The notes: a model not told the origin generated them from the sequence alone. DNA of 64,000 bases from an uncultured Planctomycetota bacterium (GCA_963737655.1 CAVTTN010000002.1:5248001-5312000), one strand, 5' to 3'. Shown: positions 27,321 through 61,647, counted from the first letter of the stretch. Program-made: numbers and translations.

Positions 27321-27321
27321 C

Positions 27322-35711: not shown

Positions 35712-38700
35712 ATGAGACGGAGCTTCCTCGGCTGGGCGGCGGTGGCGTCGGCCCTCCTCGCGACCGGCCCGGCCCGAGGGGAGCGGACGGTGTGGGTCGT
35801 GGCCATCGGCGTGGAGGCGCACGACGACCCGGCGTTGGGCGCGAACCCGGGGGCCCGGGCCTCGGCCGAGGCGGTGGCGACGTGGTTCCGGGGGATGGGG
35901 GCGTCGGCCCGGGTGGCGTTGCTGACCGATTCGGCGCCCAAATCCTCGGACAACGCCGACCGCCGGGCCCGGATCGAGCGAGGGGCGCCGCTCCGGGCCG
36001 ATTCCGAGACGATCCGCTGGGCCCTGGGCCGGTGGATCGCCTTCCGGTCGTCCGAGGAGGCGAGCGTGGTCATCTATTTCGCCGGCAAGACGGCCCGGGC
36101 CGGCGGGGAGGCGTTTCGCCAGCAGCTGGTGCCCGTCGATGGCGAGGCGAAGGCGCCGGAGAGGCGCGGGGTGGCCCTGGAGCGGGACTATTTCGCCGCG
36201 AACCTGTCGGCCCGGTCGCGGAGGCCCACGCTCCTGCTCCTGGACACCGCCCCGGCCCCTTCGGAGAAGAGGACGGTGGTCGCGGCCGACGACCCGGGCG
36301 AACGATGGCTCGTCCGGCTGGCGCCGGCCGGTCAGAACGCCTCGGCGTGGCTGGCGGCGGAGTCGGCCCCGCCGGACCTCTCCGCCAGGGCCGGGCGGTC
36401 GGCCCTGGCCTCGGCGTTCGTCGCGGCGATGGGCGACCCGAAGGCCCCCCGGGCCTTGCCCGAGGCGCTGGGGAGGCTCCGTCGCGACCCGGGATTGGCC
36501 CGCCAGGGGTTCCGCACGGTCGGCGTGGTCCCGCCGTCGTGGTCGCTCGGGCCGGAGCCGGGGCCGAGGGTCGAGCCGGCCCCGGCCGAGCTGCTGATCA
36601 AGCGGGGGCATAGCGACGTGGTCACGGCCGCCTTCTTCTCGGCCGACACCGACCGGCTCTTCACCGCCGGCAAGGACGCCACGATCCGCGTCTGGCTCCG
36701 CGACGACGCGACGGCCCGGGCGTTGAGCGATCCGGCCCGGCGGCTGGAGCCTCCGCCGTTGCTCAACGTCCTGACGCACAACGAGAACGAGATCCGCGGC
36801 GTGGCGATGAGCCCGGACGAGCGATGGGTCGTCAGCGGCGACAACCTCGGGGGGGTCTGGGCGTGGGACGCCCTCCGGCGGTCGGCGTTCCGGCTGAACG
36901 AGCCCGGGCCCGGCCCGGCCGGTCGTGGCCGTGGGGTTCCTGCCGGGATCGGGCCGCCTGGCGGCCGTGATGGAGGAGCGGCTCTGGATCTGGGACGCGA
37001 TCGGCCCGGATTCGCGGCCCCGGGCCATCACCCCTCCGCGATCGACGTCCAGGGCCGCATTCGCGACGGCCGAGGGCGGGGCGGCGGCGGCGGCCTCGGG
37101 CTTCGACGGCCGAATCCGGGTCTTCGACGCCTCGGGCCGCGAGGTCCTGGTGCTCTCGCCGTTCGAGGGGCCGGAGGCGGCCGAGGGGGTCGCGACCCGG
37201 GGGCCGGCGATCTCGGCCGACGGCTCGACGGTGGCCGCCGGGACGTCGTCCGGCGCGCTCTGGGCCTGGAGGCTCGCGGAGGCCGGGGGCTCGTGGAAGG
37301 CGGGCGAGCCGGTCCGCCGGGAGACGCTCGGGGACGTGAAGGAGGTGGCCGTCTCGGCCGAGGGCGGGACCGTGGCGGCGGCCTCCGGCAACCGGGTCCA
37401 CCTGGTCCCGACCGCTCCGGGCCAGGCCGATCGCGCGGTGGCCTTGACCGGGGCGACCGCGCCGATGGCCTTCTCGCCCGACGGCCGATGGCTCGTGGCG
37501 ACCGGAGAGCGAGGCGGCTCGGGGGCGTGGGGGGGGACGGTCCTGTGGAGGCTCGATCCCCGGGCCCTCCCCCTGATCTGGCCGCTCCGCAACCCCGAGG
37601 CGGACCGGCCCGGGGGGGTGGCGGCGCCCCCGGTGACCTCGGCCCTGGCGTTCTCGCCCGACGGCCGGGCCCTGGTCCTGGCCGACACCTCGGGAGAGGT
37701 GCGGGCCTGGGACCTCCCCTCGGGCGAACGCCGGGCGACGATCCCGGCCGGGGCGGGCAAGGTCGGCCAGATCGCCGCGGCGCCCGAGGGCTCGCTCCTC
37801 CTGCAGATCACCGCCCTGCCCGACGGCATCGCCCGGGCCTGGGACCTCCGCGTCAACGCCCAGGGGATCGAGAACGTGGCCGCGCCCCTGCCGGCCGTCG
37901 AGGGCGCGCGGTGGGACGCCGGCGCCGTCCTCCCCGGAGATCGCGGGATCGTCCTGACCTGCTCCGAGGACCTCCACAAGGTCCACGTCGTCGATCCGGT
38001 CTCCGGCCGGAAGAAGGCGGACCTGGAATGGCCCAGGGACTCGCAGACCGGCGCCTTCCTGCCCCGGTCCTTCACCACGATCGCCGCCACGGCCGACGGC
38101 CATTACGCGGCCGGGGGCAGCGCCCAGGAGCTCAGCGGCCCGGCCTGCGTGTGGGACCTGGAGAAAGGGACGTTGCTGTTCACCTATCGGGACGAGAAGT
38201 ACGGCGTGAAGGTCGTGGCGTTCCCGCCCGAGGGCAACGCCGTCCTGGCGGGGATGACCGACGGCTCGGCCCGCCTTTTGAGCCTGGAGCCCGAGCCCCG
38301 GGTGCTCAAGGCCTATGACACCGGCGACGGCTCGGAGGTCACGGCCCTGGCGATCCACCCGAAGGACGGCCGGATCGTGGCCGTGGGGAGCCGGTTCGGG
38401 CGGGTCGCGGTGTTCGGCCCGGGGGACGGCCCTCCTCGCGAATTCCTGGCCCGAGGAGCGCGGATCAGCCCGGTCACGGCCCTGGCCTTCACGCCCGACG
38501 GCACCCACCTGGCCGCCTCCCGGGAGAACGAGAAGGCCCCGTGGCTCTGGACGACCGACGACCCGGCCCGCCCGATCCGCCTGGTCGGCCATACCGAGAG
38601 GGTCGCCTCGCTCCTGGCCTGGCCCGGGTCGCGCGTCCTGTTCGAGCGCCGGGGACGACGGGACCATCCGGGCCTGGTCGGTCCGGGACGGCTCGGCCCT

Positions 38701-40087
38701 GGGGACGCTCACGACCCTGGCCGACTCGACCGAGTGGGTCGCCTTCACCCCGGACGGGCTCTTCGACGGCTCGCCCGTCGGCTGGAGGCGGGTGGCGTGG
38801 CGGATGCCGGGGTTCCTGGAAGTCCGCCCGGTGGGCCTGTTCTTCAACGACTTCCGCGCCTCCGGGCTGGTCCGACGCATCCTCAAGGCGGACCGGCCGA
38901 GCCCCAAGGGGCTGACGATCGGCCAACGCCCCGCGCCCAGGGTCACCTTGACCGGCCCCGAGTCCTCGACCCTGGAGAAGCCCGAGGCCGTCCTGAAGGT
39001 CTCGCTGAGGGACGAGGGCGGCGGGATCGGCCGGCTGACCGCCTCGAGGACCGGGCCCGACGGCGTCCTCACGCCGATCCGGCCGGGCGGCCCGGGCGCC
39101 TCGGGCGTGGGCGGGTCGAGGGAGCTGGAAATGATCATCGCCCTGTTCCCGGGGGAGAACCGGATCGAGGTCCGCGCCGGCAATGAGGACGACTCGGAGC
39201 AATCCGCCCCGCAGACCCTGGTGCTGACCTACGCCCCGCCGAAGCCCGTGGCGGTCGCCCCCCGGCTCCACGTCCTGGCCGTCGGGGTCAGCCGCTACCG
39301 GGTGGACGGGATCTCCCTGAAATACCCGGCCGGCGACGCCCTGGCGATCGCCGAGCTGTTCCGCGCCCGCAGCCCGGCCGTCTTCGGCCGGGGCCACGTG
39401 ACGGTCGCCCCGGTCCTGACCGACGAGAAGGCCACCAAGGCGGCGATCCTCGACGCCCTCCGCGGCCTCGTGGCGACGACCCGGCCCGAGGACACGGTGG
39501 TCCTCTACCTCGCCGGTCATGGCGTGGTCAGCCCGGACCGAGACGGCCGCGACGCCTATTATTTCTGCCCCCACGACGTCGATCCGGCCGACGGGCCGGG
39601 CCTGACGATCTCGGCGATCTCGACCGACGAGCTGGCCCGGGCCCTGTGCGAGTCCCCGTCCGGGCGGACCGCCTCGCGACGGGTGCTGATCCTGGACACC
39701 TGCGGGGCCGGACAGGTCCTGGCCGACCTGCCCGCGAAGCTGATCGGCATCCTCGACGCCTCGGCCCGGGACCGAGGGCAGATGATGATCGCGGCGAGTT
39801 CGGCGCGAGGCAAGGCCGACGAGTCGGAGAAGCTCCGCCACGGCATCCTGACCTATACCCTGCTGGCCGCCCTCGGCGCCGTGCCCCGGGCCCCCGAGAT
39901 CCTCCCCGCCACCATCGAGAACGCCCCCGGAGACCTCATCGACGCCAGGATCTGGTTCCACTTCGCCAGCGACTGGGCCCGGGACGTCGGAGAGAAGGTC
40001 CGGGTGGACGAGCCGCCGTCGGTCCAGGTCTCCTCGCCCGTCCCGCAGATCAACCTGTTCCGCATCGATCGCCCGGGGGGCCGGTGA
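35712..40087 (+). CDS. secreted pseudo-caspase + WD40 propellers + Ig-like + active caspase (C14) protein (frameshifts at ~36910 and ~38644)
   Basis: Signal peptide; N-terminal YFAGK/LLLDTA; WD repeats (GHSDVV...AGKDATIRVW, AFSPDGR); WVAFTPDGLFD; C-terminal YLAGHG and ILDTCG. Confidence 0.85.
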
Positions 40088-40126
40088 CCGGGCGGACCCT
40101 CGGGGAATCGGCACCGATCCTCGCGT

Positions 40127-42608
40127 CTACCGCCCCCGGGCCCGGCGATCGGGGCATTCCAGGACGATGCGGAACCCCAGGTCATTGGGGAGGGTCCCGT
40201 CGTCGGGGACGACCTGGGCGGGCGTCATCGGGTCGCCCTGGGCGGGTTCGGTGCGGAAGGAGCCTCCCCGGACGAGGAACGAGCCGGACTGGCCCTCGGC
40301 GGCGTCCCGGCACCATTCTCGGGCGTTGCCGGCGAGGCTCAAGACGCCCTGTTCGGTCACGTCCCCCGAGAAGGGGTGCTGGACCGGGAACAGGGGGATC
40401 GGGAGGTTGGCGATCCCGGGAGGGGCGATCCCTCGGAGGTTCGCCCAGGGGTCGCCGGGGGCCGGCCTCCGGCCCTGGGGCATCCAGGCGAAGACGTGAA
40501 CCAGCGGCTTGCCCCCGGACCGGGCCGCGTATTCCCACTGGAGGCTCGTCGGCATCCGGCCGAAGTGGGAGCGGGCGAACGCCCGGGCCATCGCGTGGCT
40601 GACGGCCACGGCCGGATACGCCTCCGCCTGGGCCGGCGGTTGGCCGTCGAAGGCGAAGAAATTCTCCAGGCCGGACATCGCATCGGACCACCGGAGAGGA
40701 TCGCCGGGGGGCTGGCCCACCTGGAGGAACCGGCGGAACTCGCCGTTGGTCACCTCGGTGGCCTGGAGGTAGAACGGCGGGACGACGACCGCCTTGTTGC
40801 TCCCCCCGGCGCGAACTCGCCTCGGGGGAGCCGGACGAACGGCGTGCCGTCGGACTGCCGGACGATCCTCCGGGGCCAGCCGTCCTCGTCCAGGTCCGAG
40901 CCCTCGGCCCGGGCGTACCCTTCGGGGAGATACACGTTGTCCGTCGAGAGCAGGAACTTGACCCCGTCCTCCTCGCGGATCACGGCCCCGGGCCACGGGG
41001 TATCGATCCCGTCCGGCGCCAGGGGGACGCAGCCCAGCGACTTCCACGAGGCCAGCGGCGGAGTCGGAGTCGGCGGCGGAGTCGGTGTCGGTGTCGGTGT
41101 CGGTGTTGGGGTCGGTGTTGGGGTCGGCGGAGTCGGCCTCGTTCGGTCCGCGACCGGGAACAGGAATGCCCGGATCGGCCCCCGGGCCGCGAAGCCCGAC
41201 GCCCCCAGGCCGACCAGGACGACCGCCGCGACCAACCACCGCAAGCCCGCCCCGGACCCCGGCCCCGGCTCCCGCTCCGGTCGAGGCGCGACCGGGTGAT
41301 CCGGGAACCGGCCGATCGGCGGCGGCGGGGCCTCGGCGGCGACGGGGATCGGCATCGGCATCGGCATCGGAGTCGGAGTCGGGGTCGGCGGATGGGAGAG
41401 GACCTCGCCCGACTCCTCCATCGAGGGCAGGGATTGCGGCGCGAGGTGAGGAAGCCGAGTGGGAGGCGAGGCCAGGCCGTCGCGGTTCATCGGCGGGGCC
41501 GTCGAGGCCAGGCCCAGGGCCTGGAGGAACTCGTCGGCGAGCTCGCGGGCCGACTGCGGGCGGTCGGCCGGGTTCTTGGCCAGGCACCTCATCACCAGCC
41601 TCTCGACGGCCCCGGGGACCCGGACCTCCGGGTTGGCCGCGCCGAATGGCGGGGGGGCCTTGGACAGGTGGTCGTTCAGGACCATCTGCGGAGTCCCCCG
41701 GAACGGCCGATAGCCGGTGAGCATCTCGTAGATCAGGACGCCCACGGAGTACAGGTCGCTCCGGCCGTCGAGCTCTCGGCGCCCCGGCACTGCTCGGGGC
41801 TGGAGTAATACGTCGTGCCGAGGAAGCAGCCGGGCAGGGTGCGGAGGCCGTCGTCCAGGGAGTCGTCCTGGCGGATCTTGGCGATCCCGAAGTCCAGGAC
41901 CTTGAGGTTCCGGCCCGGCGGCCGGCCGTCGACGAGCATCAGGTTCGACGGCTTGAGGTCGCGGTGGACCACCTCCAAAACGTGGGCGACCTGGAGGACG
42001 TCGCACAGGGGCTCGACGACGTGGGAGACCCATTCCAGGTCCATCGGCCGGCCGGGCCGGAGCAGGGCGTTGAGGCTCTTGCCGCGGATGTACTCCATCT
42101 CGATGAAGGCCGAATCCTTGGCGAGCCGGGCGTCGTGGACGGCCACGGCGTTGGGGTGATCCAGCCGGGCCATCACCCGGGCCTCGCGGAGGAACCGGGC
42201 CCGGACCTGGGGATCGGTGGCGATCGCCGGGCTGATCAGCTTCAGGGCGCGCTCGGCGTCGAGCTCGGCGTGGCGGACCAGCCACACCGACCCCATCCCG
42301 CCGGAGCCCAGCTGGCGCTCGACCCGGTATCGGCCGAAGAGCACCTGCCCGGGCTCGGGCTCGTCGCCCACGGACATCGACGCCAGGAGCTCCGACGACC
42401 CGACCACCGCCGGGCCGCCGGTCCCGGGCGGAGGCGGCGGGAGCAACGGGGGCGGCGTCGCCTCGTCCCGGCCCCGGGGCCGCGTCTCGGGCGACCAGCC
42501 CGGCGCCACGCCCCACGAGCTGGGCGCGCCCGGATCGTCGGACGCGGCGAACTGCGACCGCGTCTTCGGATCGACCGGATCGGGCTGTCCCGCCTGGGGT
42601 TGCGACAT
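40127..42608 (-). CDS. membrane Ser/Thr kinase with Pro/Thr linker and C-terminal FGE-sulfatase (SUMF1)-like domain (frameshifts at ~41775 and C6 run ~40802)
   Basis: GSGGMG, ALK, HRDLKPSN, DFG, SPEQ, SDLYSVG; TM; (PT)n; TEVTN, PTSLQWEYAAR, GNAREW, RGGSF, LGFR. Confidence 0.9.
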
Positions 42609-42892
42609 CCGCCACGCTCCCAACCGAGGGCCGCGACGCGCCCCGGACCACCGGACCTCTCGCGGGCCTCCTTCCAGATATACGCGATCTCCGCCGCCCA
42701 TTCCAAGCTTTCCGCCGTCACGCCCGACGGTTTTCCCCGTCCCCTCCCCTCCGGCCTCGGGCCGCCGGCCCCGGCTCCCCCCCGATGCGTTCGATAGTTC
42801 GAAATATCTCCGAAATAACACCGGTCCCTTGACAGCCCCCGCGGCCCCACTGATGATCCCCTTCCAATCCGCGCGTGTCACTTCTTTTTCGT

Positions 42893-42920
42893 TTGACACG
42901 CCACGGGTGCCTTGTACATT
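42893..42920 (+). promoter_or_regulatory. possible sigma70 promoter of the giant beta-helix gene
   Basis: TTGACA-N16-TACATT in an AT-richer divergent intergenic region. Confidence 0.45.
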
Positions 42921-43032
42921 GGACTTCGGTCGATCTCCCAGTTCCCCCATTTCCCCGTTGCATCAATTATCTACCCATCCCCCCTAATCGATATTCATGC
43001 CCGATGTGGGGGATTTTTCCGGAGCCCAACCG

Positions 43033-46000
43033 ATGCGGCAGGGCAAGGCGAAGGCGCGACATCTCGGCTACGATCGCCGGCGATCTCATGGGCGGCTGAG
43101 CCTGGAGGCCCTGGAGCCCCGGCAGCTCTTAGCGACCCTCACGGTGACCATGTCGGGCGATGCCGCCGGGGCGACGGGGACGCTCCGCGATGAGCTTTCC
43201 AAGGCCAACTCGCCGGGCGGCGACTCGATCGTCTTCGACCTGCAGGACCAGAATCCGGACGCCGGTAACAACGAGACCATCACCCTGAATTCCCCGGTCA
43301 CCGTCGGCGGGATGGTCACGATCCAGGGGATCGCCGTCGGCGGGACCCATTCGACGATCACGATCGATGGCGGGGGCAAGGCGTTCGACGGCCTGATCCT
43401 CACGGGCGACGCGAACTCGCTGAGGAACCTGACGGTCAACGACTTCGGCGGCAGCGGCGTGGTGATCCAGGGCGGCACCGGCGACACGATCGTCGGCAGC
43501 TTCCTCGGCACCGACTCCAGGGGGGCGGCGGCCATCGCCAACGGCGGGGCCGGCATCCTGATCATGGCCGGCGGCAGCACGATCGGCGCCCTGGCCATGC
43601 CCAACGTGATCTCCGGCAACGGCGGCGCGGGCGTGTCGATCGCCGGGACGGCCTCGGGCAACGTCCTGATCGGCAACAAGCTCGGCGTCGGCGCCGACGG
43701 CACCACCCCCCTGCCCAACAGCATCGGCGTGGGCCTCAGCGGAGTGACCGGCAACACCATCGGCCCGGGCAACGTGATCGCCGGCAACCTGGCCGAAGGG
43801 GTCCGGATCGACGGCGGCTCGAAGAACGTCGTCACGGGCTCCTACCTCGGCACCGACCCCGCCGGGGACGACCTCCACAACGGCACCTTCGGCGTGGTGA
43901 TCGGCCCCGCCACGGCCTCGGACGGCAACACCATCGGCGGGGCCGCCGTCGCCGACGGCAACACCATCGCCTTCAACCCCACGAGCGTCCGCGTCCACTC
44001 CGGCACCGGCAACTCGATCCTCACCAACTCGATCCACGACAACAAGACCGCCGGGATCGCCCTGGACCCGGGCGCCAACGAGGACGTGACCGCGCCGACC
44101 GTGAACGCCGCCCTCGATTTCTCGGCGACTTACACCACCCGTCAGGGCGTGATCGCCCGGGGGACCGTGACCGGGGTTCTCGGGGCCGACGGCAAGTACC
44201 TCGTCCAGTTCTTCTCCGACCCGGCCGCCGACGCCAACCTCGACGAGGGCCGGACGTTCCTCGGCAGCACCGTCGTGACCGTCGCCGCCGGGACCGGCGC
44301 GTTCGACGTGGACCTGACCGGGACCGTCGCCGTGGGCGACTACATCACGGCCACCGCGACGACGCCGACCGGCAGCACCTCGATGTTCTCGGCCGCGACG
44401 AAGACGACCGACGCGCTCCTCGTGACGACCACCGGCAACGACCCCGCGACGCCCGGCACCCTGCCCTACGCCCTCCAGGCCGCCAACGACCACAAGAACG
44501 CCACCGACCGCATCCACTTCGACATCTTCTCCGGCCCATTCGTGATCGCGCCAACCGATACGCTGACGGCGACCGACCCGGTCATCATCGACGGCACCTC
44601 GCAGATTGGCTACACCACGACCCCGATCATCGAGATCAGCGGGGCGAACGCGCCGACGACCTCCGACGGCCTCGTCTTCGACGCCGGATCGGGCGGGAGC
44701 GCCCTGGTGGGCGTGGCGGTCTACGGGTTCGGAGGCACCGCCGCCCCCCTGGCCAGCAACGTCGTCCTGAACTCCGACGGCGACGCCATCGCGGCCGATT
44801 TCCTCGGCCTCCAGCCCGACGGCACCGCCCTGAACACCGGGGTTGGGCTGACGGTCAAGTCGGCGAGCAACACCATCGGCGGGTCCGGCGCGGTCACGAT
44901 CGGCCCGGCGGGGGCGTCCGTGACGGTCGCGAACCCCGGCAACCTGATCTCGGGCAACGCGGGCGATGGCATCCTCCTGACCGGCGCCGGGGCGACCGGC
45001 AACCGCGTCCTGGGCAGCACGATCGGCGCCGATGTGACCGGGGCGACGGCCGTCCCCAACGGCGGATCGGGCGTGACGATCGTCTCCGGGGCCTCTTTGA
45101 ACACGATCGGCGGGTCGAAGGCCGGCGAGGGGAACCTGATCTCCGGCAACGCGGGGTCCGGCGTGTCGATCACCGGGACGACCGCCACGAGCAACCTCCT
45201 GCTCGGCAACTTCGTCGGCACCACGGCCGACGGCAAGTCCGTCCTGGCCGGGACCTCGCAGCCGACGGGCGTGTTCCTCGACACGACGACCGGCAACACG
45301 ATCGGCGCCGGCAACGTCGTCTCGGGCGGCACCTCGGCGAACGTCGAGATCAACGGCGGGTCGAAGAACGTCGTGTCCGGCAGCTTCGTGGGGACGAACG
45401 CCAGCGGCTCGGCGGCCCTGGCCGGCACCTCGCCCACCGATGGCGTGTATGTGAACGGATCGGCGTCGAACACGATCACCGGGAACCTGATCTCGGGGAA
45501 CGCGACCGGGGTGGTCCTCTCCGCGGCCGGCGCCACCGACAACGTCGTGATCTCGAACCGGATCGGCACGGATGCGGCGGGCTCGGCGGCGGTGGGCAAC
45601 AACGTCGGCGTGAGCGTCGATACCAACGCCTCGGGCAACGCCATCGGCCAGAGCGGCTCGGGCAACCTGATCTCGGGGAACTCCGCCGACGGCATCCAGA
45701 TCATCAACAACGGCGCCTCCGCCAACACCATCGCCGGCAACACGATCGGCCTGGACCTCTCCGGCTCGGCCAAGCTCGCCAACGGCGGGGCCGGCCTGAA
45801 CGTCGGCAACTCGTCGCTCCTCCTGATCGGCGGCAGTGCCACCGGCGCCGGCAACGTGATCGCCGGCAACGCCCACGAGGGGGTCATCCTGGGCTCCACC
45901 AGCCCGGCCCTCTCCAACACGATCCAGGGCAACGCCATCGGCACCGACCGCGCCGGGACCGCCACGACCCTGGGCAACGGCGCCGACGGCATCCTGATCA

Positions 46001-52000: not shown

Positions 52001-54115
52001 CGTCCTGCTCTCCGACGCCCAGTTCACGATCATCGGCGGCGCCTACGGGAACGGCGGCAACTTCATCTCCGGGAACGCCGGGGGCGGGATCGCCCTGTAC
52101 AACGGGTCGGGCGACACGCAGATCTTCGGCAACGTGATCGGGATGGGCGCCGACGGCAACATCCCGGCCGGGACGGTCACCAATGGCGCGGTCCCGGGCA
52201 TCCTGATCTCGGACTCCCACTCGACGACCGTCGGCGGCCTCCTGGGCTCGACCGGCAACGTGATCTCGCGGAACACCGGCGACGGGATCGACGTGTTCGG
52301 CTCGGCCTCGGCCGCGACGGCGATCCTCGGCAACTTCATCGGCACCCTTCCCGGCGGCGGAGGGGCCGCGCCCAACGGCCTGGTCGTGACCCAGGCGTCG
52401 GGGCCGCTGAAGGGCGTGGGCCTGGCCGAGGGGGACGGCGTCCTCGTCGTGGGCGCGTCGGGCGTGACCATCGGCGGGTCCGGCTCGGCGGGCAACGTGA
52501 TCTCGGGCAACCTCAAGAACGGCGTCGAGTTCCAGTCGGCAGCGAGCGCCGTGGTCCAGGGCAACAAGATCGGCACCGACGCTTCCGGGACGATCCGGAT
52601 CGCCAACGGCCTGCCGTTCGGCCCGGGATCGCGGATGGAGTTGGCCGATTCCGGCGGGGTGATCGACTCGGAGTTCCTCAACGACGCCGGGGGCAACCCG
52701 GTCAGCCTCAAGAACGCCTATTCCAACGGCGTCCTGGTGGTCGATTCGCCGGGGGCGACGATCGGAGGCGCGGGCGGGCTGGGCAACGTGCTCTCGGGCA
52801 ATGGCTCGAACGGCCTGGTCCTCCAGGGATCGGGGACGTCCGGCGCGTCGGTCGGGGGCAACGTGATCGGCCTGGCGGCCGGGGGTTCGGTGCCCTCGGT
52901 CAGCCTGGGCAACTACGGCGACGGCATCCTGATCGACGGATCGGGGAAGAACGCGATCGGGGCCCCCGGCTCGGGCAACATCATCGCGGCCAACGGGTTC
53001 ACCCGGAGCACGACGTTCCCGACGACCTCGGACCTCACCGCCGGGGTGTTCCTCCAGGGTCAAGGGGCGTCGGGCAACGTCCTCCGGGGCAACACGATCG
53101 GCTCGGACGCCTCGGGGACGACCCGGGCCCCCTGCCCGATCACCTGGTCAATCCGTTCGGCGTGGTGGCCCAGACCGGCGGCCTCGGCGGCGTCTTCCAG
53201 CCGGCCGGCGTGTTCGTCCTGGATGCCCCGAAGAACACGATCGGCGGCGTCCTCGGGTCGTCGGGCAACGTGATCTCGGGCAACGGGTTCGTCGGGGTGG
53301 ACGTCCGGAGCAAGATCGCGGGCTTCGCCACCCAGGCCGACCAGGACGGCGACGGCGGGGACGGCACGCTCGCCGGGGGCAACCTGATCGTCGGCAACTT
53401 CGTCGGGACCAACGCCTCGGGCGGCTCCACGGTGCCCAACGGCTCGACGATCTCGACCGGCACGGTCGGGGCGGGGATCTACGTGAACAAGGCGTCGAAC
53501 ACCACGATCGGGGGCAGCCGGGCCGACGGCGCCGGCAACGTGGTCTCCAACAACCAGGCCTCCGGCGTGGAGATCCTGGGCGACCCGAAGGGGAACACCC
53601 CCAACGGCGCCGGCACGCTCGTCCAGGGCAACATCATCGGCCTGGACCCGACCGGGATGATGGCCCTGGCGAACCTGGCCGACGGCGTGTATGTGGTCAA
53701 CGCCCCGGGAGCGACGATCGGCGGGGTCGGCTCGCCGTTCGTGATCGGCAACGTGATCTCGGGCAACGGGGCCGACGGCATCCACCTGTTCGACTCGGGG
53801 ACCGTCGGCACCCGGATCGGCTCGAACTTCCTCGGGACGGACATCCTGGGCAAGACGAAGACGGGCGTCGGCAACTGCGCCTACGGCATCCTGATCGACG
53901 ACGGCGTGAAGGACGCCAAGGTCTTGAACGGGTCGCAGAGGAACTTCGGCAACGGCTTCGGGCCGGTCCGCGATACGAGGCTCGACTCGTCGGCCGAGCA
54001 CGTCCCGGCCGGCGCCCGCTTGGGCGGCGGGATGGTCTGCACCCCGGGCCAGACCATGAAGGCCAAGGCCCGGCTCCTGCATCACTTCAAGACGGCGAAG
54101 ACGGCCAAGGGCTGA
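43033..54115 (+). CDS. giant (~3,700 aa) parallel beta-helix repeat surface protein with planctomycete export leader (frameshifts at G5 ~46870 and C5 ~53129)
   Basis: RRRSHGRLSLEALEPRQLLAT leader; dozens of GNVISGN/IGTDxxG/GNxxDGV repeats; two YxVQFF...EGRTxLG...GSTSxFS modules; three ORFs join on adding one base at each run. Confidence 0.88.
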
Positions 54116-54191
54116 GAGAGGTTGCCATGCTCGGGGGTCATCGCCCACGAAGACGTGGGCATGACTCCCGGGGATGGCATCGAGCCCGCGA

Positions 54192-55700
54192 TCATCGGAC
54201 GGCCACCGGGGGCGCCCGGCGCCGACTCCCGGCATGCCGATCCCCCGGCCGTTGCCGCCGAACCGCAGGTTGAAGAGGGCCACGATCTCGTAGTCGAACG
54301 GCTTCGGGCCGGTGATCGGGGTCACGTAGGCGAGCGTCAGGAACGCCCTCTGGCGGAGGACCACCGTGGTCCCGAACGTCAGGTTCACGATGTCCGGCTG
54401 GCTGGCCGGGTCGTTGGTGTGGAACCCTCGGTGGTTCAGGGGGACGTTCAGGTGGGTCTCGAACGTCGGGACGATCGCCGTGACCAGCGCGTTCTTCTGC
54501 TTGTTCTGGTAGGCGTAGTAGCCGATGGCCAGGTCCTCGAAGAGGATCGTGGAATCGTTCGGGTCGGTCGGCACGGCGATGGCGGTGAAGCCCTGGAGGT
54601 ACGCCCGTCCCTGGGAGAAGAGGTAGCCGACGAACGGCTGGATCTGGGTGTTGCGGAAGCCGACGATGTTGTTATAGCCGCCGAAGGATTTCGGGCCGGT
54701 CGGCAGGGAGAGGTCCATGCCGAGGGTCAGGAGCTTCCTCCAGTCGTCGCTGGCCATCAGCACATACTTGCCGAAGACGCTGAGGTTGCCGAGGGCCGAG
54801 TGCGTCCCCCCGTAGCCGGGCTGGAAGCTGTCCACGACGATCGTGTTGACCGGCTCGCGGAGGCCGAAGGAGGCCCGGCCGTCGAGGAACGTCTTCTCGA
54901 AGCCGAACAGCTCGCGATAGGCGCGGACGTGGGTGATCGGGGCGAGGACCCTCTGGTTGTAGGAGCGATTGATGTTGTCGTAGAAGTTGAAGTCGCCAAA
55001 AATCCGGTCGATCGGCCGGGGGTCTGGTTCTCGGCGATCTTGAAGCCCCGGATCGGGGCGCTGAGGCCCTTGATCGGCCGGGGGGCGGAGGGGGCGGAGC
55101 CGGGGGGCAGCTCGCTGCCGGTTCCGGCGGCCTGGTAGATGCGGAACGGGAGCATGTCGCCGATGATCCCGGGGGGGGCGCCTCCCGAGCTGAGGCCCTG
55201 GCCCTCCTCGGAGGAGACCGCGGCGCCCGGAGCGGCGGCGCCTCCGGTCGCGCCGAGGCCGCCGGAAGTCCCGTAGGGGCTGGCCATCCCCGGCGCGGTC
55301 GCCCCTCCCGAGGCCATGGCCGTGTTCGGCGATCGGAACTCGGGGGCGCCGAGGGCGGCCCCCTGGAGGGTCATCCCCAGGAACCCCTTGCCGTGGCCGT
55401 GGCCGTGGCCCCGGCCTCCGCACGGGCAATTCGGCCGTGTACAGGCCGGAGAGCCCGGCAGGCCCTGCGGGCTCGCCTTCGCCGGAGGTGCCTGGGGCGT
55501 CGGTAGGGGGGCGAACGGGCCGGCGCCTGGGGGCTCACGACCTCGGACTCACCCCGGGCGGCCCCGGGCGCCGAAGATTCCGGACGCGCGTTCTGGAAAT
55601 AGGCCGACTGGTACGGCGGGTCGTCGGCCCGGGCAATCCCGACCGTCAGGCCGATCAGCGTGAACGCGGCCCCGAGAGCGGCGTAATGCTTTTGATCCAT
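54192..55700 (-). CDS. putative outer-membrane beta-barrel protein (apparent frameshifts at G runs ~55506, ~55018 and ~54208)
   Basis: Signal peptide MDQKHYAALGAAFTLIGLTVGIARA; Pro/Gly linker; FKIAENQTPRPIDRIF; amphipathic strands ending EIVALFNLRF. Confidence 0.7.
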
Positions 55701-56018
55701 CGAATCGGGCTCCTGAGTCGTCCGATTAGGATTTTCGTCCGAACGGCCCCGCTCGGGACCGTACATGCCTTCAGGGGTGGGTCGATTCGAGGGCGGTCCG
55801 GTTGCGCCGGAACCCCGGATTCGTCAACCTCTAGCTGGGATATCGACCATCGGGATTTTTCGGTTTGCAGAATTCGGCCTCTTCCGACAATGATTACTAT
55901 TGTGCGGTTTGCCCCGGCCATGCGAGCGCTCGCCCCGCGAGGAGGCGGCCGCCGTCTCGGGTCGATCGCGTCGAGGCGAGGGGGCCGGCCCGAGGTCGGG
56001 CGCGGGGAGAGGGCAGCC

Positions 56019-59000
56019 ATGAGCGGAGCGTCCGGTCGTCCGGGGGCGATGTGGGGACTCACCGTCCTCCTGAGCATGGTCGCGGCGATGGCCTGGGCCT
56101 CGCCGTCCCGGGCGCAGTATGCGTCCCGGAAGTTCGTGGACGAGCCGATCCTGGTCAACACCGGCGAGGGGCACACGGCCCCGGTGGAGGCCCTGGTCTT
56201 CGACCCCGACACCGGCCGGCTGCTCTCCGGAGGGGACGACAAGGTCATCCACGTCTGGGGCCCGGCCGAGGACGGCCCCCGGCCGCTCCAGACCCTCCGG
56301 CCGCCGATCTGGAGGGGTTTCGGCGGCAGCGTCTGGGCGATGGCGATCAGCCCGGTGGCCGACGCCCAGGGGCAGCGGTGGCTGGCCGTCGCCGGCTATG
56401 GGGTGGCGGCGCAGAGGGGGGAGATCCTCCTGTACCGCTACCCCGGGATCGCCGCCCAGGCGACCGGGGATCTCGTGAAGAAGCTGCCCCCGACCCAGGA
56501 TGGCGGCCTGCCCATCGCCGACCCGGGGCATACCGAACCGGTCCGCGCCCTGGCCTTCTCCCCGGATGGCCGACGGCTCGCCTCGGCCGGGCGCGACGGC
56601 TCGGCGCGAGTCTGGGACCTGGCCACCGGGACGGCGATCGTCTTGAACGTCGGCCCCGGCGAGATCCTCCGAGGCGTGGCGTTCACGCCCGACGGCCGCC
56701 TGGTCGTCACCGGCGGCAACGACGGACTGCTCCGGCTCTGGGACCCCTCCCGGCCCGCCCGGCCAATCCACCAGGTCGGGCCGTTCGACGCCCGAGACAA
56801 TGGCCGCCTGGCGCGATCCAGTGCCTGGCGATCCGCCGGGATGGCCGGGCCGTGATCCTGGGGACCGAGGGGGGCCGGCTCATCCAGGTCGGCCTCCAGG
56901 GCGCGGCCTTCGGCGGGTTCGAAGACCTCCTCCCGGAACGCAAGGACCGCGGGTCGGTGGAGTCCCTGGCGATCAGCCCCGACGGCCTGAAGGTCGCCGC
57001 CGGGGTGATCCTCCGGCGGATCGCCGACCCCCGGGAGCTGCCCGACAGCCGGTCCGAGGTCGTCGTGATCCGCCTGGACACCAGGCTCCCGGACCGGCCG
57101 TCGATGCCCAGCGAGTCGAAGGTCTATGCCTGCGCCTTCTCGGCCGACGGCTCCCGGCTGGCGTTCGCCGACGGGGCCAAGGTGGTCGTCCAGGACCTGG
57201 CCGCCGGGGGAAGCGCGCGGACCCTCAGGGGTCGCGGGGCGGCGATCCCGGCCCTCGGCTTCCTTCGAGACGGCCTGACCGTCGGCTTCGCCCGGTCCCG
57301 GCCCGATCCCGGCTCGGTCCCCTCGTATCGAGGCTTCGACCTCCTCCAACGCCGGGCCGTCCCGGTCCGGGGCGAGGCCCTTCAAGGGGCCGTTACGACC
57401 GACCGCGGCCTGACGATCCGGCCGGCGACCCAGTATTCGCTGAACGTCCTGGACGAGGCCAATCGCGGCTGGACCCTGAATCTCGACTCGAACATGGACG
57501 GCCGATGGCGGTCGTTCAGCTTCTTGCCGGGTCGGCCCCGGCCGATGGTGGCCGTGGGCTGCCGGGTGGGCACGGTCCTGTTCCGGCTCGACGCCGACGG
57601 CCGGGCGGTCCGCACCCACATCTTCGCCGGCCATTCCGGGGACGTCCTGGCCCTCGCCCCCTCGCCCGACGGCAAGTGGCTGGCGACCGGCTCGGAAGAC
57701 CAGACCATCCGGCTCTGGTCGCTCGAGGGCTGCGACCGCCCGGCCGAGCTCGGGGCCACGTTCCTCGCCTCGCCCAATGGCCAGACGGTCGTGGGCGACG
57801 TCCGGCCCATGTCCTTCGCCGAGACCGTCGGCATGAAGCCGGGGGACGTGATCGAGACGTTCCAGTTGAACGATCCCAGGCCCGGATCGCCGACGCTCCT
57901 CCCCTCCCGAGAGGAGTTCCTGAAGAAGATCGCCGAGGGGATCGAGCCCAACACCAAGGTCTCCTTCCACGCCCGCCGCAAGGGGTTCGCGCCGAACGAC
58001 CCGGCCGGCGTCGCCAAGTATGGGACGAGCCTCCGGGACGGCCCGACCCTGACCCTGTTCCCGACCGAGGACCGCGAATGGGTCCTGTGGACGCCCCAGG
58101 GGTATTATGACTCGTCGGTCGAGGGGGATTTCTCGTTCCTGGGCTGGCAGAAGAACCGGGGAAGCCTGGACGGCTGGAAGCCGTCGTTGTTCTTCCGGAT
58201 CAGCGAGTTCGAGCGCGAGCTGAGGAGGCCGGAGGTCCTGGATCGCCTGATCCGGACCGGTCGGATTCGCCCGGCCCTGGCCTCGTCGGCGAAGCCGACG
58301 CTCCGGGCGGCGACGCCCCTTCCTCCGCCGCCCCCGAGGACGCTCGCCCAGGGCTTGCCGAAGGCGCCGAGGGGACCGCTGGTCCGCCCCTCTCCGCCTC
58401 CGGCCGTGGCGACGATCCCCCGCCCTCCGGCCGACGCCCGGCTCGTCCTGGCGACCCCGCCGTCGATCCGGTTCCTCGGGCCCTCGCACCGCGAAGGGGC
58501 GGCCGTCGTCTCCCTGATCCAGACGGTCGAGGTCCGGGTCCAGGTCGAGCCCCAGGACGGCCGTCCGGTGGTCGGGCTGGAGGCGACCGTCGAGGCCTCG
58601 GCCGTCCCGGGCTACCCTCGGCAGATCGCCCCTCGGGCCCAGGCGTTCGAGGACACCTTCCGCGCCTCGCTCCAGCCGGGGCTGAACCGGGTGGTCGTCC
58701 GGGCCCGGAACGACCGGGACAAGGCGGGCGAGGCATCCCTGGAGATCTATTTCGCCGACCCGAAGCCCCGGCCGCCCCGGGTCCTCCTCGTGGCGATCGC
58801 CGCGGGCGCCTTCCCCCAGGCCCCCGAGCACGACATCCGGTTCGCCGAGAAGGACGCCCCGGCCGCCCTGAACGCCCTGAAGGGCCTGGCCGACCGGAGC
58901 AAGCTGGACGTCGAGATGATCGGCCCGCTGACCGGCCAGGCCGCCACCTCGGCCCAGATCGACGGCGTCCTGGACGGCCTCGACCAGGCCATCGAGCGCC

Positions 59001-59581
59001 GGACCGTCCATCCCGGGGACACCGTCGTGATGTTCCTGGAGTCGCACTTCCTCCGGTTCGGTGCCGCCTCGGCGGAGGGGTTCGCCGGGGCCGACCTGAC
59101 CTCGCCGCCCTCGCCGAAGGCGACCATCCCGGCGGCGAAGCTCGCCCACGTCCTCGGCCGCCTCCGCACCGAGGCCCGATGCCAGGTCGTCCTCATGATC
59201 GACGCGATCCACGACGGCGCCTCGCCCCAGCTCCAGACCCGCCCGTTCGATGATTGGGTCCGCGAGCTGACCTTCCGCAAGGGCGTGATCACCGTGATCG
59301 CCTCCAAGGACCTGCCCAGCCTCCGGGGCAACGACCTCGGCCTGTTCGCCTGGGGCCTCACCCAGATCGACCAGCCCCGCAATCGCCAGAGGTTCCTGGG
59401 AATCCGCCGGCCCGAGGTCCCCCTGACGCTCGACGAGCTCGGCCGGGCCCTGTCGGGGGTCGTGGGAGAGGAAAGCAACAGCGAGCAGGCCGTCGGCTAC
59501 TACATCCCGGCCAGCCTCAGCCACCGGACCCCATTCCTCGCCCCGCCGACCGACGGCGGTCGGGTGGTCCGGGCGAAGTGA
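56019..59581 (+). CDS. secreted WD40 + PDZ + Ig-like + pseudo-caspase protein (frameshift at ~56808)
   Basis: Signal peptide; GHT...GGDDKVIHVW, AGRDGSARVWD; PDZ-like VRPMSFAETVGMKPGDVI; WVLWTPQGYYD; C-terminal FLESH/IDAIH. Confidence 0.85.
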
Positions 59582-59610
59582 GGTGACGGGGGCCGGCCCC
59601 CGGTCCCCGG

Positions 59611-61647
59611 CTACTTCTCCAGGAGCCGCTCGTCTTCATAGCCGACCTGGACGACGGCCAGCAAGCGGCCCTTGCGGCGGAACTCGGCGGTGGTGAAGGT
59701 GCGGGCCTCCTTCTGGCCGCCGACGACCCGCAGGGCCCGGCTCGTGTCCTCGGCGAAGAAGGCGGCGGTGATCAGGCCGAGGCTCTCGGCGGGGTCGCGG
59801 CGGGAGCCTTCGTCCTGGGGCACGTTCTCGAACCGGAATCGTTGGAGCTCGAACGCGCCGGCCTCCCCCGGGGCGTTGGCCGCGGCCCTGGGGATCGAGA
59901 ACCCCTCGATCTCGGTCGATCCGCCGGGTTCCAGGACCCACGGACGGCCCGCCTCGGCCGTCTCGGCGGCCTTGCCCAGGGTGTTCACGCCGTCGATCCT
60001 CAGGACCACGCCCACCCGGCGATCGGAGCGGTTGGTCAGCCGGACCTTGAAGACCTCGCCGTCCCGGGCCCCGACGATTCGGAGCCTGGGATCGAGGGCC
60101 CGGGCGGCCGGATCGTTCGGGACGGCGTTCTCGCGGGGGACCTTCGGCCGCCATCGCGTCGAGGCGTCCACCGCGGCCCCGGGACGGCCGTCGGCCGAGA
60201 GCAGCTCGACGCGGAACGGGAAGTCCTCGGCCCAGACCGCAACCTGGGGCCGGGCGAGGTCCACCGGCGGGGCCGGCTGGGGCGGCCCCGGCGGCCGTTC
60301 CGGAGGGCGGTTGTCCAGAGACCGGCCGATCTCGGCGGCCAGCGCCTCGTCCAGCTTCAGCCGTCCGCCGAGGCGCGCGACCGAGCCCCCTTCGGCCGCG
60401 AACAGCTCGCACTGGACGCCCATCGCCGCGTCCGAGACGCTCAGATCGCCCACGACCGAGGCCGACGGAGGCCCCGGGCGGCAGTCCGCGGCGGAGGCGT
60501 CGCGATCGACCCGGTAGGCGCCCGGCTCCGTCGGCGCGAGCCGGGCCAGCTCGTCGCCGATCGACCGGGCCAGGAGGCCGGGCAAGGGGTAGCGGGCCAG
60601 CCCCGCCCTCGCCCCGGCGACCTTCACGCGGAACTCCTTCGGCACGCCCACGCTCGGGTACTTGCGGAGCCGGACCTCCTCGTCCAGGAGCGCGGCCATC
60701 CGTCGCGAGAGGTCGTCCACCGGCTCGGGGCGGAGGCTCAGCAAGGGCGGATCGCCGTCGATCTCCCGGGAGAGCTCGCGGGCCGGGGTCTGCTCGGGAT
60801 GGTTCAGGGCCCGGATCGTCAGCGGGACGTGCTCATGGGTGTAGTTGGCCACCTCGGTGGCGGTCAATCGGCCGTCGCCGTCGGCGTCGGCGGCCCCTTC
60901 CAGGGCGCGGCGGAGCCAGTAGGTGAAGACGCTCTGGTTCCTCTCGGGCCATTCCCAGCTCGACTGGCCGTCCCGGCAGCTCTCCAGGACCACGAACGAG
61001 TTCCTCGGCACGGCACGGCCGCCCTCGGCCGGGCGGGCCGGGCCGGTGGCGATCGGGTTGGGCTGCACCGACTTGCCGCCGGGCAGGGCCCGGCCCCCGG
61101 TGTCCAGGCAGCAGTCCAGGATCAGGAACTTGGTCGTCGCCGGGCAGCCGTTGAGGTAGACCCCCAACGTCCCGGCCTTCAGGAACGTGTCGGGCGCCTT
61201 CGGGTCGGCGTCGATCGGGACGAGGTGCGGCTTGCCGTCGATCAGGAGGCCGTGGCCGCTGAAGAAGAACAAGAGCGAGTCGCCGGGCCGGATCTCGTGG
61301 AGGAACTTCGGCAGCCGGGTCGTCAGGTTGGCGAACGTCGGCCGGAGGCCCGGCCCCGAATCGTCGGCCATCTGGAGGATGTGGTCGTCCGCCACCCCCG
61401 CGCGCTCGACCAGGGTCCGCCGGAGGCCGCGGACGTCGGCCAGGGGGACGCGCAGGTCGGGGATCGCCGGGCTCTCGTAGTCCTGGGCCGCGATCAGGAC
61501 GGCCCACTGCTCGGCGGGCCGTCCGGGCTCGCCCTGGGCCTGGACCGAACCGGCCGTCCCCAGGGCCGCCATCAGCCCGAGGAACGGCCCGTACCCCGGG
61601 AGGAACCGCCGCATTCGCCGTCGAACGCTCGTCGAGGGGCCGATCAT
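59611..61647 (-). CDS. secreted caspase-family (C14) peptidase with uncharacterised C-terminal domains
   Basis: Signal-like region; WAVLIAAQDY, FFFSGHG, ILDCC, SVFTYWL, GAADADGDGRLT; C-terminal VRLTNRS...IDGVNT...LGLITAAFF. Confidence 0.88.
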   Translation of the reverse strand: MIGPSTSVRRRMRRFLPGYGPFLGLMAALGTAGSVQAQGEPGRPAEQWAVLIAAQDYESPAIPDLRVPLADVRGLRRTLVERAGVADDHILQMADDSGPGLRPTFANLTTRLPKFLHEIRPGDSLLFFFSGHGLLIDGKPHLVPIDADPKAPDTFLKAGTLGVYLNGCPATTKFLILDCCLDTGGRALPGGKSVQPNPIATGPARPAEGGRAVPRNSFVVLESCRDGQSSWEWPERNQSVFTYWLRRALEGAADADGDGRLTATEVANYTHEHVPLTIRALNHPEQTPARELSREIDGDPPLLSLRPEPVDDLSRRMAALLDEEVRLRKYPSVGVPKEFRVKVAGARAGLARYPLPGLLARSIGDELARLAPTEPGAYRVDRDASAADCRPGPPSASVVGDLSVSDAAMGVQCELFAAEGGSVARLGGRLKLDEALAAEIGRSLDNRPPERPPGPPQPAPPVDLARPQVAVWAEDFPFRVELLSADGRPGAAVDASTRWRPKVPRENAVPNDPAARALDPRLRIVGARDGEVFKVRLTNRSDRRVGVVLRIDGVNTLGKAAETAEAGRPWVLEPGGSTEIEGFSIPRAAANAPGEAGAFELQRFRFENVPQDEGSRRDPAESLGLITAAFFAEDTSRALRVVGGQKEARTFTTAEFRRKGRLLAVVQVGYEDERLLEK

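What the first reader, a model, noticed from the sequence alone, without database searches (positions are those of the whole stretch)
35712..61647. Candidate envelope system: three exported caspases, giant beta-helix protein, beta-barrel and membrane kinase
Seen: six contiguous genes form three convergent pairs: WD40-caspase >< kinase-FGE, beta-helix >< barrel, WD40-PDZ-caspase >< caspase. Every product has a signal peptide, export leader or TM, and no housekeeping gene intervenes. Established: C14 caspase-like domains use a His-Cys dyad, and CHAT proteases of the same clan are often encoded beside two-partner-secretion beta-helix/beta-barrel pairs. Inference: a planctomycete analogue in which periplasmic caspase complexes mature, release or monitor a surface filament and report to the cytoplasm through the kinase (adhesion, kin recognition or defence). 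I do not recognise it as a described system.
Basis: partly seen in the sequence, partly recalled or inferred. Interest (0 to 1): 0.88.

Follow-up and report, generated by a model that had tools for sequence, protein, structure and literature searches.

The report
Planctomycete caspase-kinase envelope module
Five of the six genes form a conserved cell-envelope gene module of one planctomycete family (a membrane kinase, an exported caspase-like protease, its catalytically dead partner, an outer-membrane channel and a giant surface protein) that in many relatives sits inside type VI secretion gene clusters, and it may be how these bacteria sense contact and trigger that weapon.

Summary
The six genes, three convergent pairs and export signals are real; five genes carry frameshifts. 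Corrections: only two caspase domains keep His+Cys; the WD40-PDZ protein's caspase lacks Cys, and gene 1 carries a second, dead caspase domain. The barrel is a 12-stranded FapF/COG4313-like fold, not TpsB, so the two-partner-secretion analogy fails. Five genes (kinase-FGE, caspase, pseudocaspase, barrel, beta-helix) are a conserved Isosphaeraceae module: 46 of 52 pseudocaspase loci hold a partner, 17 all five; gene 6 is accessory. New: in 21 of 34 genomes holding both, the module lies in or beside a type VI secretion (T6SS) cluster; TssJ and the periplasmic TssM domain were found in 0 of 81 family genomes. Best reading (0.45): a trans-envelope contact-sensing relay that works like TagQRST-PpkA, with a TagR-family domain fused to the kinase and a caspase/pseudocaspase step. 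Against: this window's copy is divergent and far from T6SS genes, and 9 of 43 module genomes showed no TssB. No paper found describes it. The scan noted a related Gemmata cluster and the T6SS pseudocaspases on other DNA. All mechanism is inferred.

The parts
35712..40087 (+). Gene A (g1): signal peptide, N-terminal pseudocaspase (about 35790-36590, no His/Cys), WD40 propellers, Ig-like linker, C-terminal C14 caspase with His and Cys (about 39270-39880); frameshifts near 36915 and 38645
   Evidence: Pfam WD40 and Peptidase_C14 E 1e-10; alignments A1, A2, A6; N-terminal domain vs caspase profile 94.7%; collinear with intact 1,420-1,670-aa orthologues
40127..42608 (-). Gene K (g2): Ser/Thr kinase with intact catalytic motifs, Pro/Thr linker, one TM (about 41190-41235), periplasmic FGE-sulfatase-like domain without the catalytic Cys pair; frameshifts near 41795 and 40815
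   Evidence: Pfam Pkinase E 6e-28, FGE-sulfatase E 4e-18; motifs; TM hydropathy 2.29; 0 of 24 orthologous FGE domains have two Cys after the RGGS motif
42997..54115 (+). Gene H (g3): about 3,700-aa right-handed beta-helix protein with planctomycete export leader (near 43100) and a basic C-terminal tail; frameshifts near 46890 and 53170
   Evidence: Pfam Beta_helix E 1e-40, NosD; PF07595 E 0.011; leader census; tails of neighbours
54200..55700 (-). Barrel gene (g4): signal peptide, Pro/Gly-rich linker, conserved pre-barrel motif, predicted 12-stranded outer-membrane beta-barrel (about 54260-55010); frameshifts near 55505 and 55018; exact 3' end uncertain
   Evidence: Translations; alignment A5; model of orthologue L045 pLDDT 73; FapF Z 21.4, COG4313 channel Z 20.5
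56019..59581 (+). Gene B (g5): signal peptide, WD40 propellers, PDZ-like domain (about 57730-58060), Ig-like linker, C-terminal pseudocaspase (58760-59578; His kept, Cys absent); frameshift near 56810
   Evidence: Pfam WD40, PDZ; profile match to caspase 98.1%; alignments A3, A4, A11
59611..61647 (-). Gene 6: intact 678-aa protein; signal peptide, C14 caspase with His and Cys, then an unnamed two-domain part (alpha/beta plus beta-sandwich) whose stand-alone homologues lie near WD40-caspase genes in other planctomycetes; accessory to the module
   Evidence: Pfam Peptidase_C14 E 5e-15; same architecture in L004; profile hits; Atlas: unnamed Planctomycetota clusters, score 0.94

Best explanation
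The window holds a rearranged, divergent, stand-alone paralogue of a five-gene Isosphaeraceae envelope module (usual order H >< barrel <> B >< A < K) that most likely serves as the sensing and triggering accessory of the atypical planctomycete type VI secretion system. Model: (1) the leader-bearing beta-helix protein is displayed on the surface and contacts a neighbouring cell or surface [inferred]; (2) the FapF-like 12-stranded barrel exports or anchors it, or reports its state through its long periplasmic linker [fold shown on a model, role inferred]; (3) periplasmic B, a WD40-PDZ scaffold with a dead caspase domain, docks at the barrel and pairs with A's active caspase domain, switching it on or holding it off as an inactive partner [loss of Cys and co-occurrence shown, binding inferred]; (4) A cleaves or binds a periplasmic target, probably after Arg/Lys, and the signal reaches the non-catalytic FGE domain of K [dyad and two conserved Asp shown, substrate unknown]; (5) K dimerises, autophosphorylates and phosphorylates the FHA protein of the T6SS cluster, as PpkA does [by analogy]. 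In this genome the T6SS genes lie in four separate islands, so the window copy would act in trans or has been re-wired to another output. Gene 6 is an added second active caspase from a related planctomycete cluster type.
For: Module conserved: of 52 family loci of B, 34 have the barrel, 33 A, 30 K, 27 the helix, 17 all five, 46 at least one of A, K or barrel. A and B co-occur: 37 of 38 A-positive genomes have B. A keeps His+Cys in 24 of 24 paired loci, B lacks Cys in 24 of 24. T6SS link: B lies 13-72 kb from TssB on the same contig in 17 of the 34 genomes that have both, and next to TssK/ClpV or the T6SS protein X in 4 more; T6SS genes stand on both sides of module genes in G055, G081, G216, G181, G304, G227, G274, G020, in several different gene orders. 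These clusters hold a double-FHA protein. TagR, the periplasmic activator of PpkA, is COG1262 (PMC13584744, table passage), the FGE-sulfatase family (recalled) that K carries as a fusion. TssJ and IcmF_C were found in 0 of 81 family genomes, control positive. One of this genome's other copies abuts a vgrG gene.
Against: The window copy has no T6SS gene in 64 kb and its active caspase domain is no closer to the family profile than unrelated planctomycete caspases (99 vs 111 bits; branch 3.87). 9 of 43 B-positive and 7 of 38 A-positive family genomes gave no TssB match, among them genomes 94-99% complete, one with all five genes; 11 TssB-positive genomes gave no B match. None of the 15 loci shows a T6SS gene in its flanks. 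Barrel plus helix occur without A and B (barrel in 57 of 73 genomes), and about 66 proteins of this genome carry the same leader with only 4 barrels. Kin are not independent: shared ancestry of one island could explain much of the linkage. Kinase-FGE fusions are common in the phylum (PMC11032199, passage). No binding, cleavage or phosphorylation was shown.
Confidence: 0.45

Rival explanations
1. A Fap-like export and maturation line for the giant beta-helix protein, independent of T6SS: the barrel translocates the unfolded protein, the active caspase trims it or the barrel's linker, B chaperones, K monitors.
For: Barrel's best fold match is FapF, whose system needs the periplasmic cysteine protease FapD (PMC5557850, passages); a helix gene lies beside the barrel in 27 of 34 barrel-holding loci, usually tail to tail within 330 bp; complete modules exist in genomes with no TssB match; related kinase/caspase/barrel clusters outside the family show no T6SS gene in their flanks (L192, L202, L204).
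Against: FapF and the small-molecule channel COG4313 tie within 1 Z unit, so the fold does not show protein export; barrel and helix are found without any caspase partner; does not explain embedding in T6SS clusters in several gene orders.
Confidence: 0.25
2. Structural role: A, B, the barrel and the T6SS protein X build the periplasmic and outer-membrane part of the T6SS membrane complex in place of TssJ and the missing half of TssM, assembling through caspase-fold contacts, with A's protease activity as a maturation step.
For: TssJ and IcmF_C in 0 of 81 genomes; TssM frames are 493-614 aa with only the N-terminal domain; X is a TM pseudocaspase (93% profile match) found in 119 of 301 genomes, 118 of them TssB-positive, and lies directly upstream of K in several loci.
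Against: 14 of 45 TssB-positive family genomes gave no A match and 11 no B match; A was found only in this family while X spans the class, so A and B cannot be core parts; a 12-stranded barrel is too narrow for an Hcp tube (recalled).
Confidence: 0.12
3. Two loosely tied sub-modules (K+A; barrel+helix+B) that gather in envelope or conflict islands without one shared pathway; the window copy may in addition be decaying.
For: The halves are split in several genomes and in this one (copies at 4.16, 4.80 and 2.64 Mb hold only parts); the window copy has 5 detected frameshifts in K, A, B against 3 in the four other copies together and about 9 in 25 kb against 4 in 38 kb of control genes (a less sensitive method).
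Against: 37 of 38 A-positive genomes have B; B lost its Cys in the lineage that has A, whereas the single WD40-caspases of other families keep both residues; no in-frame stop, high third-position GC and intact catalytic motifs in the window.
Confidence: 0.13
4. A periplasmic defence or cell-death switch: envelope damage or an incoming toxin activates the caspase, which kills or arrests the cell.
For: Caspase, WD40, kinase and FGE/CLec domains recur in proposed conflict systems of multicellular bacteria (PMC10907252, passages); FGE-like proteins can be T6SS immunity proteins (title in a reference list).
Against: No NTPase, TIR or pore-forming effector was seen in the module; vertical, family-wide conservation is unlike patchy defence islands. 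PADLOC was not searched.
Confidence: 0.05

Closest known systems
T6SS threonine-phosphorylation pathway, TagQRST-PpkA-Fha1-PppA of Pseudomonas aeruginosa H1-T6SS (and RtkS-PpkA of Serratia)
   Same: Inner-membrane Ser/Thr kinase, a periplasmic FGE-family (COG1262) domain as input, an outer-membrane component, an FHA protein, all in or beside T6SS clusters (PMC13584744 and PMC6082577, passages).
   Different: FGE domain is fused to the kinase; the outer-membrane part is a beta-barrel, not a lipoprotein; no TagS/TagT seen among the neighbours; adds a caspase, two pseudocaspase domains and a giant beta-helix protein; the T6SS has no detectable TssJ or periplasmic TssM; module also occurs away from T6SS.
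Pseudomonas Fap secretion (FapF barrel + FapD C39 peptidase)
   Same: 12-stranded barrel with long N-terminal periplasmic linker, a periplasmic cysteine protease and a secreted beta-rich neighbour (PMC5557850, passages).
   Different: 8-10% identity; protease is clan CD C14, not C39; linker is Pro/Gly-rich by eye, no coiled coil seen; neighbour is 1,000-3,700 aa and larger; kinase and pseudocaspase have no Fap counterpart.
Multidomain bacterial C14 caspase homologues (orthocaspases/metacaspases with WD40 or FGE domains)
   Same: C14 fold, WD40 and FGE partners, N-terminal export signals, and frequent dyad loss in Planctomycetes (64% conservation) are described (PMC3501461, passages).
   Different: The passages seen describe domain architectures, not a conserved active/inactive gene pair with barrel, kinase and T6SS.
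Two-partner secretion (TpsA/TpsB, type Vb)
   Same: Giant beta-helix protein encoded next to an outer-membrane barrel.
   Different: No POTRA/Omp85 barrel, no TPS domain; genes convergent; leader is the planctomycete motif.
Caspase-8/cFLIP pair of animals (recalled, no call)
   Same: An active caspase paired with a paralogue that lost its catalytic Cys.
   Different: Periplasmic, WD40-linked, predicted Arg/Lys-type pocket; binding not shown.

Membership tests
Peptidase C14 (active) | Caspase fold with His-Cys dyad: gene 1 C-terminal domain and gene 6 | tested here: met
   PF00656 above cut-off for both; His and Cys present in the window and in 24 of 24 A orthologues
Peptidase C14 (active) | His-Cys dyad in gene 5 (B) | tested here: not met
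   Fold matches (98.1%) but Cys absent in the window and in 24 of 24 paired orthologues; His in 22 of 24; one family locus, L184, keeps both
Peptidase C14 (active) | His-Cys dyad in the N-terminal domain of gene 1 | tested here: not met
   Cys absent in 32 of 33 rows that span the column; the one with Cys lacks His
Peptidase C14 (active) | Proteolytic activity | not testable with these tools
   needs an assay
Two-partner secretion | TpsB: 16-stranded Omp85 barrel with POTRA domains | tested here: not met
   No POTRA/ShlB/Omp85 hit in Pfam or NCBIfam; model matches 12-stranded barrels best; FhaC only E 2e-4, TM 0.38/0.24
Two-partner secretion | TpsA: N-terminal TPS domain | tested here: not met
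   No such Pfam hit on the first 1,299 aa; planctomycete leader instead
FapF / COG4313 barrels | 12-stranded barrel with N-terminal segment entering the lumen | tested here: met
   Orthologue model aligns to FapF 88-406 over 235 residues, Z 21.4, rmsd 3.4, and to 4RL8 Z 20.5; PF13557 E 0.0016, below cut-off. Residues before 29 have pLDDT under 50, so the plug itself is uncertain
FapF / COG4313 barrels | Trimer, N-terminal coiled coil, polypeptide transport (FapF) | not tested
   N-terminus looks Pro/Gly-rich by eye; no oligomer or transport test
T6SS threonine-phosphorylation pathway | Membrane Ser/Thr kinase gene in the T6SS cluster | tested here: inconclusive
   Met for orthologous loci; not met for the window copy
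T6SS threonine-phosphorylation pathway | FHA protein in the T6SS cluster | tested here: met
   Double-FHA proteins in G055 and in this genome's 4.01 Mb island
T6SS threonine-phosphorylation pathway | TagR-family periplasmic domain | tested here: met
   PF03781 in K, non-catalytic; family-level only, orthology to TagR not tested
T6SS threonine-phosphorylation pathway | TagQ, TagS/TagT, PppA, TagF | not tested
   No dedicated search; none recognised among the neighbours scanned
T6SS threonine-phosphorylation pathway | Kinase phosphorylates Fha or TssL and controls firing | not testable with these tools
   needs phosphoproteomics and mutants
Formylglycine-generating enzyme (catalytic) | Cys pair after the RGGS motif (motif recalled) | tested here: not met
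   0 of 24 domains; absent in the window

The most novel reading that the evidence does not exclude
Planctomycetes have rebuilt the envelope side of the type VI secretion system from caspase-fold parts, and Isosphaeraceae gate it with a periplasmic protease switch made of an active caspase and a dedicated pseudocaspase partner that couples a surface beta-helix contact sensor and a FapF-like barrel to a receptor kinase: an extracytoplasmic, non-death caspase signalling cascade in bacteria.
Probability: 0.3. Interest if true: 0.9.

Novelty: new variant of a known kind. Interest (0 to 1): 0.72.

Why it matters
What exported bacterial caspase homologues do is an open question, and so is how planctomycete T6SSs work with no detectable TssJ or periplasmic TssM. 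This module ties the two together and names testable parts in cultured genera (Singulisphaera, Tundrisphaera, Tautonia records hold it): one catalytic Cys to mutate, one conserved pseudocaspase, one kinase with a likely FHA substrate, one barrel and one surface protein. If right it adds a protease-gated type of T6SS trigger and a bacterial caspase/pseudocaspase pair; if the Fap-like rival is right it points to an export route for some of the leader-bearing giant surface proteins of planctomycetes.

Tried and rejected
Two-partner secretion: rejected. A new metal site in B from its two conserved His: rejected, the second His is the ancestral residue after the catalytic Cys in active relatives. 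The caspase as general leader peptidase for the Arg-containing leader: set aside, about 66 proteins here carry the leader and A was found in one family only. Basic C-terminal tail as a barrel-specific signal: net charge of 3 or more in 26 of 27 barrel-adjacent helix frames (one is a fragment), but also in 11 of 28 other leader proteins against 23% of 1,643 control frames, so not specific. Gene 6 non-caspase part: model pLDDT 47.5, no fold match at E<=0.001, no PDB or Pfam hit; fold left open. A-family caspase profile found no solved relative at E<=0.01; the FGE profile found no chain named TagR. No sequencing run was listed, so frameshifts and expression were not checked on reads. 7 of 9 breaks have a run of 4 or more equal bases within 25 nt, against 54% at random: uninformative. 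The A-B complex prediction could not be run, no verdict. One search used an out-of-frame barrel query and served only as a lead. Literature searches without a describing paper: 0 papers; 0 papers; closed journals and bioRxiv supplements were not covered. Hsu et al. 2009 on TagR was not held.


Full report
Observation. The window is C2:5,248,001-5,312,000 of a 7.63 Mb, 68.7% GC assembly in three contigs, 87.7% complete. Six genes fill 35712-61647 as three convergent pairs, with nothing between them. I call them A (g1), K (g2), H (g3), barrel (g4), B (g5) and gene 6. Pfam confirms WD40 plus C14 caspase in A, kinase plus FGE-sulfatase in K, beta-helix in H, WD40 in B and C14 in gene 6. The PDZ-like part of B is weak here but 9 of 10 orthologous segments tested hit a PDZ model. 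Export signals were judged by hydropathy only. Five genes are split by about nine single frameshifts, with no in-frame stop and third-position GC above 0.9 over most of the tract. Control genes of this assembly gave 4 breaks in 38 kb by a less sensitive method, and the other module copies fewer than this one; no reads were listed. Sequencing error is likelier than decay, but this is not settled.

The caspases. There are four caspase-fold domains, not three, and two are dead. A's C-terminal domain and gene 6 keep His and Cys. B's domain matches the caspase profile (98.1%) but lacks the Cys in the window and in 24 of 24 orthologues from loci that also hold A, while A keeps His and Cys in 24 of 24; one family locus, L184, keeps both in B. 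A also has an N-terminal caspase-fold domain (94.7%) without Cys in 32 of 33 rows. Both A and B keep two invariant Asp residues at the places that give metacaspases their Arg/Lys preference (recalled). Lower-scoring WD40-caspases of other planctomycete families keep the dyad, which suggests a split into an active and an inactive partner in this family (inference).

The barrel. No Omp85, POTRA or TPS family was hit. A model of the orthologue in L045 (pLDDT 73) matches 12-stranded barrels: FapF first (Foldseek E 3e-9; Z 21.4, rmsd 3.4 over 235 residues) and the COG4313 channel tied (Z 20.5); FhaC is far down. FapF secretes amyloid subunits and needs the periplasmic cysteine protease FapD (PMC5557850, passages). 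The fold does not by itself show protein export.

Conservation. Full-length relatives of B in the named collection were 15 loci, all from Planctomycetota records and, where a genus is named, Tundrisphaera, Singulisphaera and Tautonia; I infer that family f1 is Isosphaeraceae. B-like matches were found in 43 of 73 family genomes and, with lower scores, in other families; A at E<=1e-40 in 38 of 73 and no other family; 37 of those 38 have B. I scored 52 B loci of about 20 kb (L041-L055, L151-L185, L187, L189; dropped: L150, a duplicate, and L186, L188, active-dyad forms; some genomes give more than one locus): barrel 34, A 33, K 30, helix 27, all five 17, at least one of A, K or barrel 46; among the 37 with full flanks all five in 16 and none in 3; among the 40 not used to build the profiles all five in 13. 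The usual order is H >< barrel <> B >< A < K; the window is a rearrangement. This genome has 3 B, 3 A, 3 K-with-FGE and 4 barrels; every B faces a barrel and every A touches a K. With the window left out of training, its A N-domain, B, barrel and FGE score above all non-family loci (145 vs 66, 436 vs 321, 351 vs 229, 157 vs 83 bits), but its active caspase domain does not (99 vs 111) and sits on a very long branch. Gene 6 is not core: a profile of its non-caspase part hit 0 of the 52 loci but 8 of 20 loci around active WD40-caspases, 5 of them outside the training set.

The T6SS link. Neighbours of several loci are TssH, TssD, TssK, TssG and VgrG. TssB was found in 45 of 73 family genomes: 34 have B and TssB, 9 B only, 11 TssB only, 19 neither (kin are not independent, so no p-value is claimed). 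In 17 of the 34, B lies 13-72 kb from TssB on one contig, where about 4% is expected per genome by chance; 4 more are linked through TssK/ClpV or protein X. Of the other 13, most lie on short contigs, but G131, G013, G165 and G015 show no link in the DNA seen. In G055 the order is ClpV, FHA, VgrG, short TssM, TssL, TssK, TssG, TssF, Hcp, TssC, TssB, helix, barrel, B, A, K, X, TssA; G216, G181, G227, G274, G304 and G020 embed module genes in other orders. These systems are atypical: TssJ and IcmF_C matched 0 of 81 family genomes with E. coli as positive control, TssM frames are 493-614 aa, and X, a membrane protein with another pseudocaspase domain (93.0%), is in 119 of 301 class genomes, 118 of them TssB-positive. 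In this genome T6SS genes lie in islands at 1.88, 4.00-4.03, 4.26-4.28 and 7.53 Mb; the window has none.

How it most likely works. Shown: gene content, topology by hydropathy, which domains are active, conservation, linkage. Inferred: everything else. In Pseudomonas the periplasmic COG1262 protein TagR activates the kinase PpkA, which phosphorylates the FHA protein and starts T6SS assembly; in Acinetobacter OmpA and TslA mark contact sites (PMC13584744, passages; PMC6082577, passages; PMC3953482, passages). K joins a kinase to a non-catalytic FGE domain, the clusters hold a double-FHA protein, and the other four genes span surface, outer membrane and periplasm. I therefore favour a contact-sensing relay: helix to barrel to B/A to K to FHA (0.45). 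The window copy would act in trans or on another output. Rivals: a Fap-like export and maturation line independent of T6SS (0.25), supported by complete modules in genomes with no TssB match and by barrel-helix pairs lying tail to tail; loosely tied sub-modules or a decaying copy (0.13); a structural stand-in for TssJ/TssM (0.12), weakened because 14 of 45 TssB-positive genomes gave no A match; a death switch (0.05).

What is known. Passages of PMC3501461 describe exported caspase homologues with WD40 or FGE domains and 64% dyad conservation in Planctomycetes; PMC11032199 reports periplasmic FGE domains as the third commonest kinase partner in the phylum; PMC8567305 treats the leader as a cell-surface motif; the passages searched in PMC13584744, a 2026 review of T6SS accessory factors, contain 'caspase', 'WD40' and 'planctomyc' 0 times. 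PMC10907252, PMC13713981 and PMC3482391 were seen as passages only. Nine searches listed no paper that describes this module, judged from titles and abstract starts; closed journals and supplements were not seen. The scan itself noted a related kinase/caspase/barrel cluster in Gemmata (e1-2978907) and the T6SS pseudocaspase proteins (e1-4081846); I read both after finding the same patterns, and they are not independent support.

Verdict. It is not a member of TPS; it may work like TagQRST-PpkA or like Fap without being a shown member of either. Novelty: new variant of a known kind. Interest 0.72; the boldest reading, a caspase/pseudocaspase switch gating a rebuilt T6SS, has probability 0.3 and would merit 0.9.

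Noticed in passing
G000:C2 4.000-4.004 Mb (L230:10041-13940) and 4.265-4.271 Mb; homologues class-wide: Large single-pass membrane protein X with an N-terminal pseudocaspase domain (and vWA in some) found in 119 of 301 Planctomycetia genomes, 118 of them TssB-positive; lies beside tssK-tssL-short tssM.
   Followed up: yes
Isosphaeraceae genomes: TssJ and the TssM C-terminal domain not found in 81 genomes searched; TssM frames are only about 500-600 aa.
   Followed up: yes
G000:C2 1.872-1.884, 4.134-4.171, 4.795-4.801, 2.638-2.645 Mb: Four more whole or partial copies of the module in this genome; the one at 4.13 Mb has about 29 kb of beta-helix coding sequence directly upstream of K and A; the one at 1.88 Mb abuts vgrG.
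   Followed up: partly
L028-L029, L207-L208, L195, L197, L206: A second cluster type: several exported active WD40-caspases in tandem with stand-alone homologues of gene 6's non-caspase part.
   Followed up: partly
L192, L193, L202, L204: In other families an active WD40-caspase lies with a kinase, a DUF4384 or haem-c/DUF4384 protein and (L192, L202, L204) the same barrel family; in L202 a leader-bearing surface protein follows the barrel.
   Followed up: partly
L032:12632-15241, L036: Caspase and FGE domains fused in one polypeptide (Pfam for L032; L036 by eye), hinting that the two domains work together.
   Followed up: no
G000:C2 6.441-6.444 Mb: Two tandem kinase matches of the K subfamily with no FGE domain or caspase partner detected nearby.
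   Followed up: no
window 30778-34616: BlaI-type repressor followed by a 1,243-aa BlaR1/M56 peptidase with carboxypeptidase-regulatory repeats, then a low-GC purine-rich repeat tract at about 34700-34830.
   Followed up: no
window 8836-11557, 25003-30441, 61954-63357: Ordinary planctomycete DUF1800/DUF1501 and PSCyt1-DUF1549-DUF1553/DUF1501 genes; purH, aminotransferases and a ketoacyl synthase at 15.7-22.4 kb.
   Followed up: no
whole genome: 67 matches to the planctomycete export-leader pattern (one looks spurious); many of the large ones end in a basic tail.
   Followed up: partly
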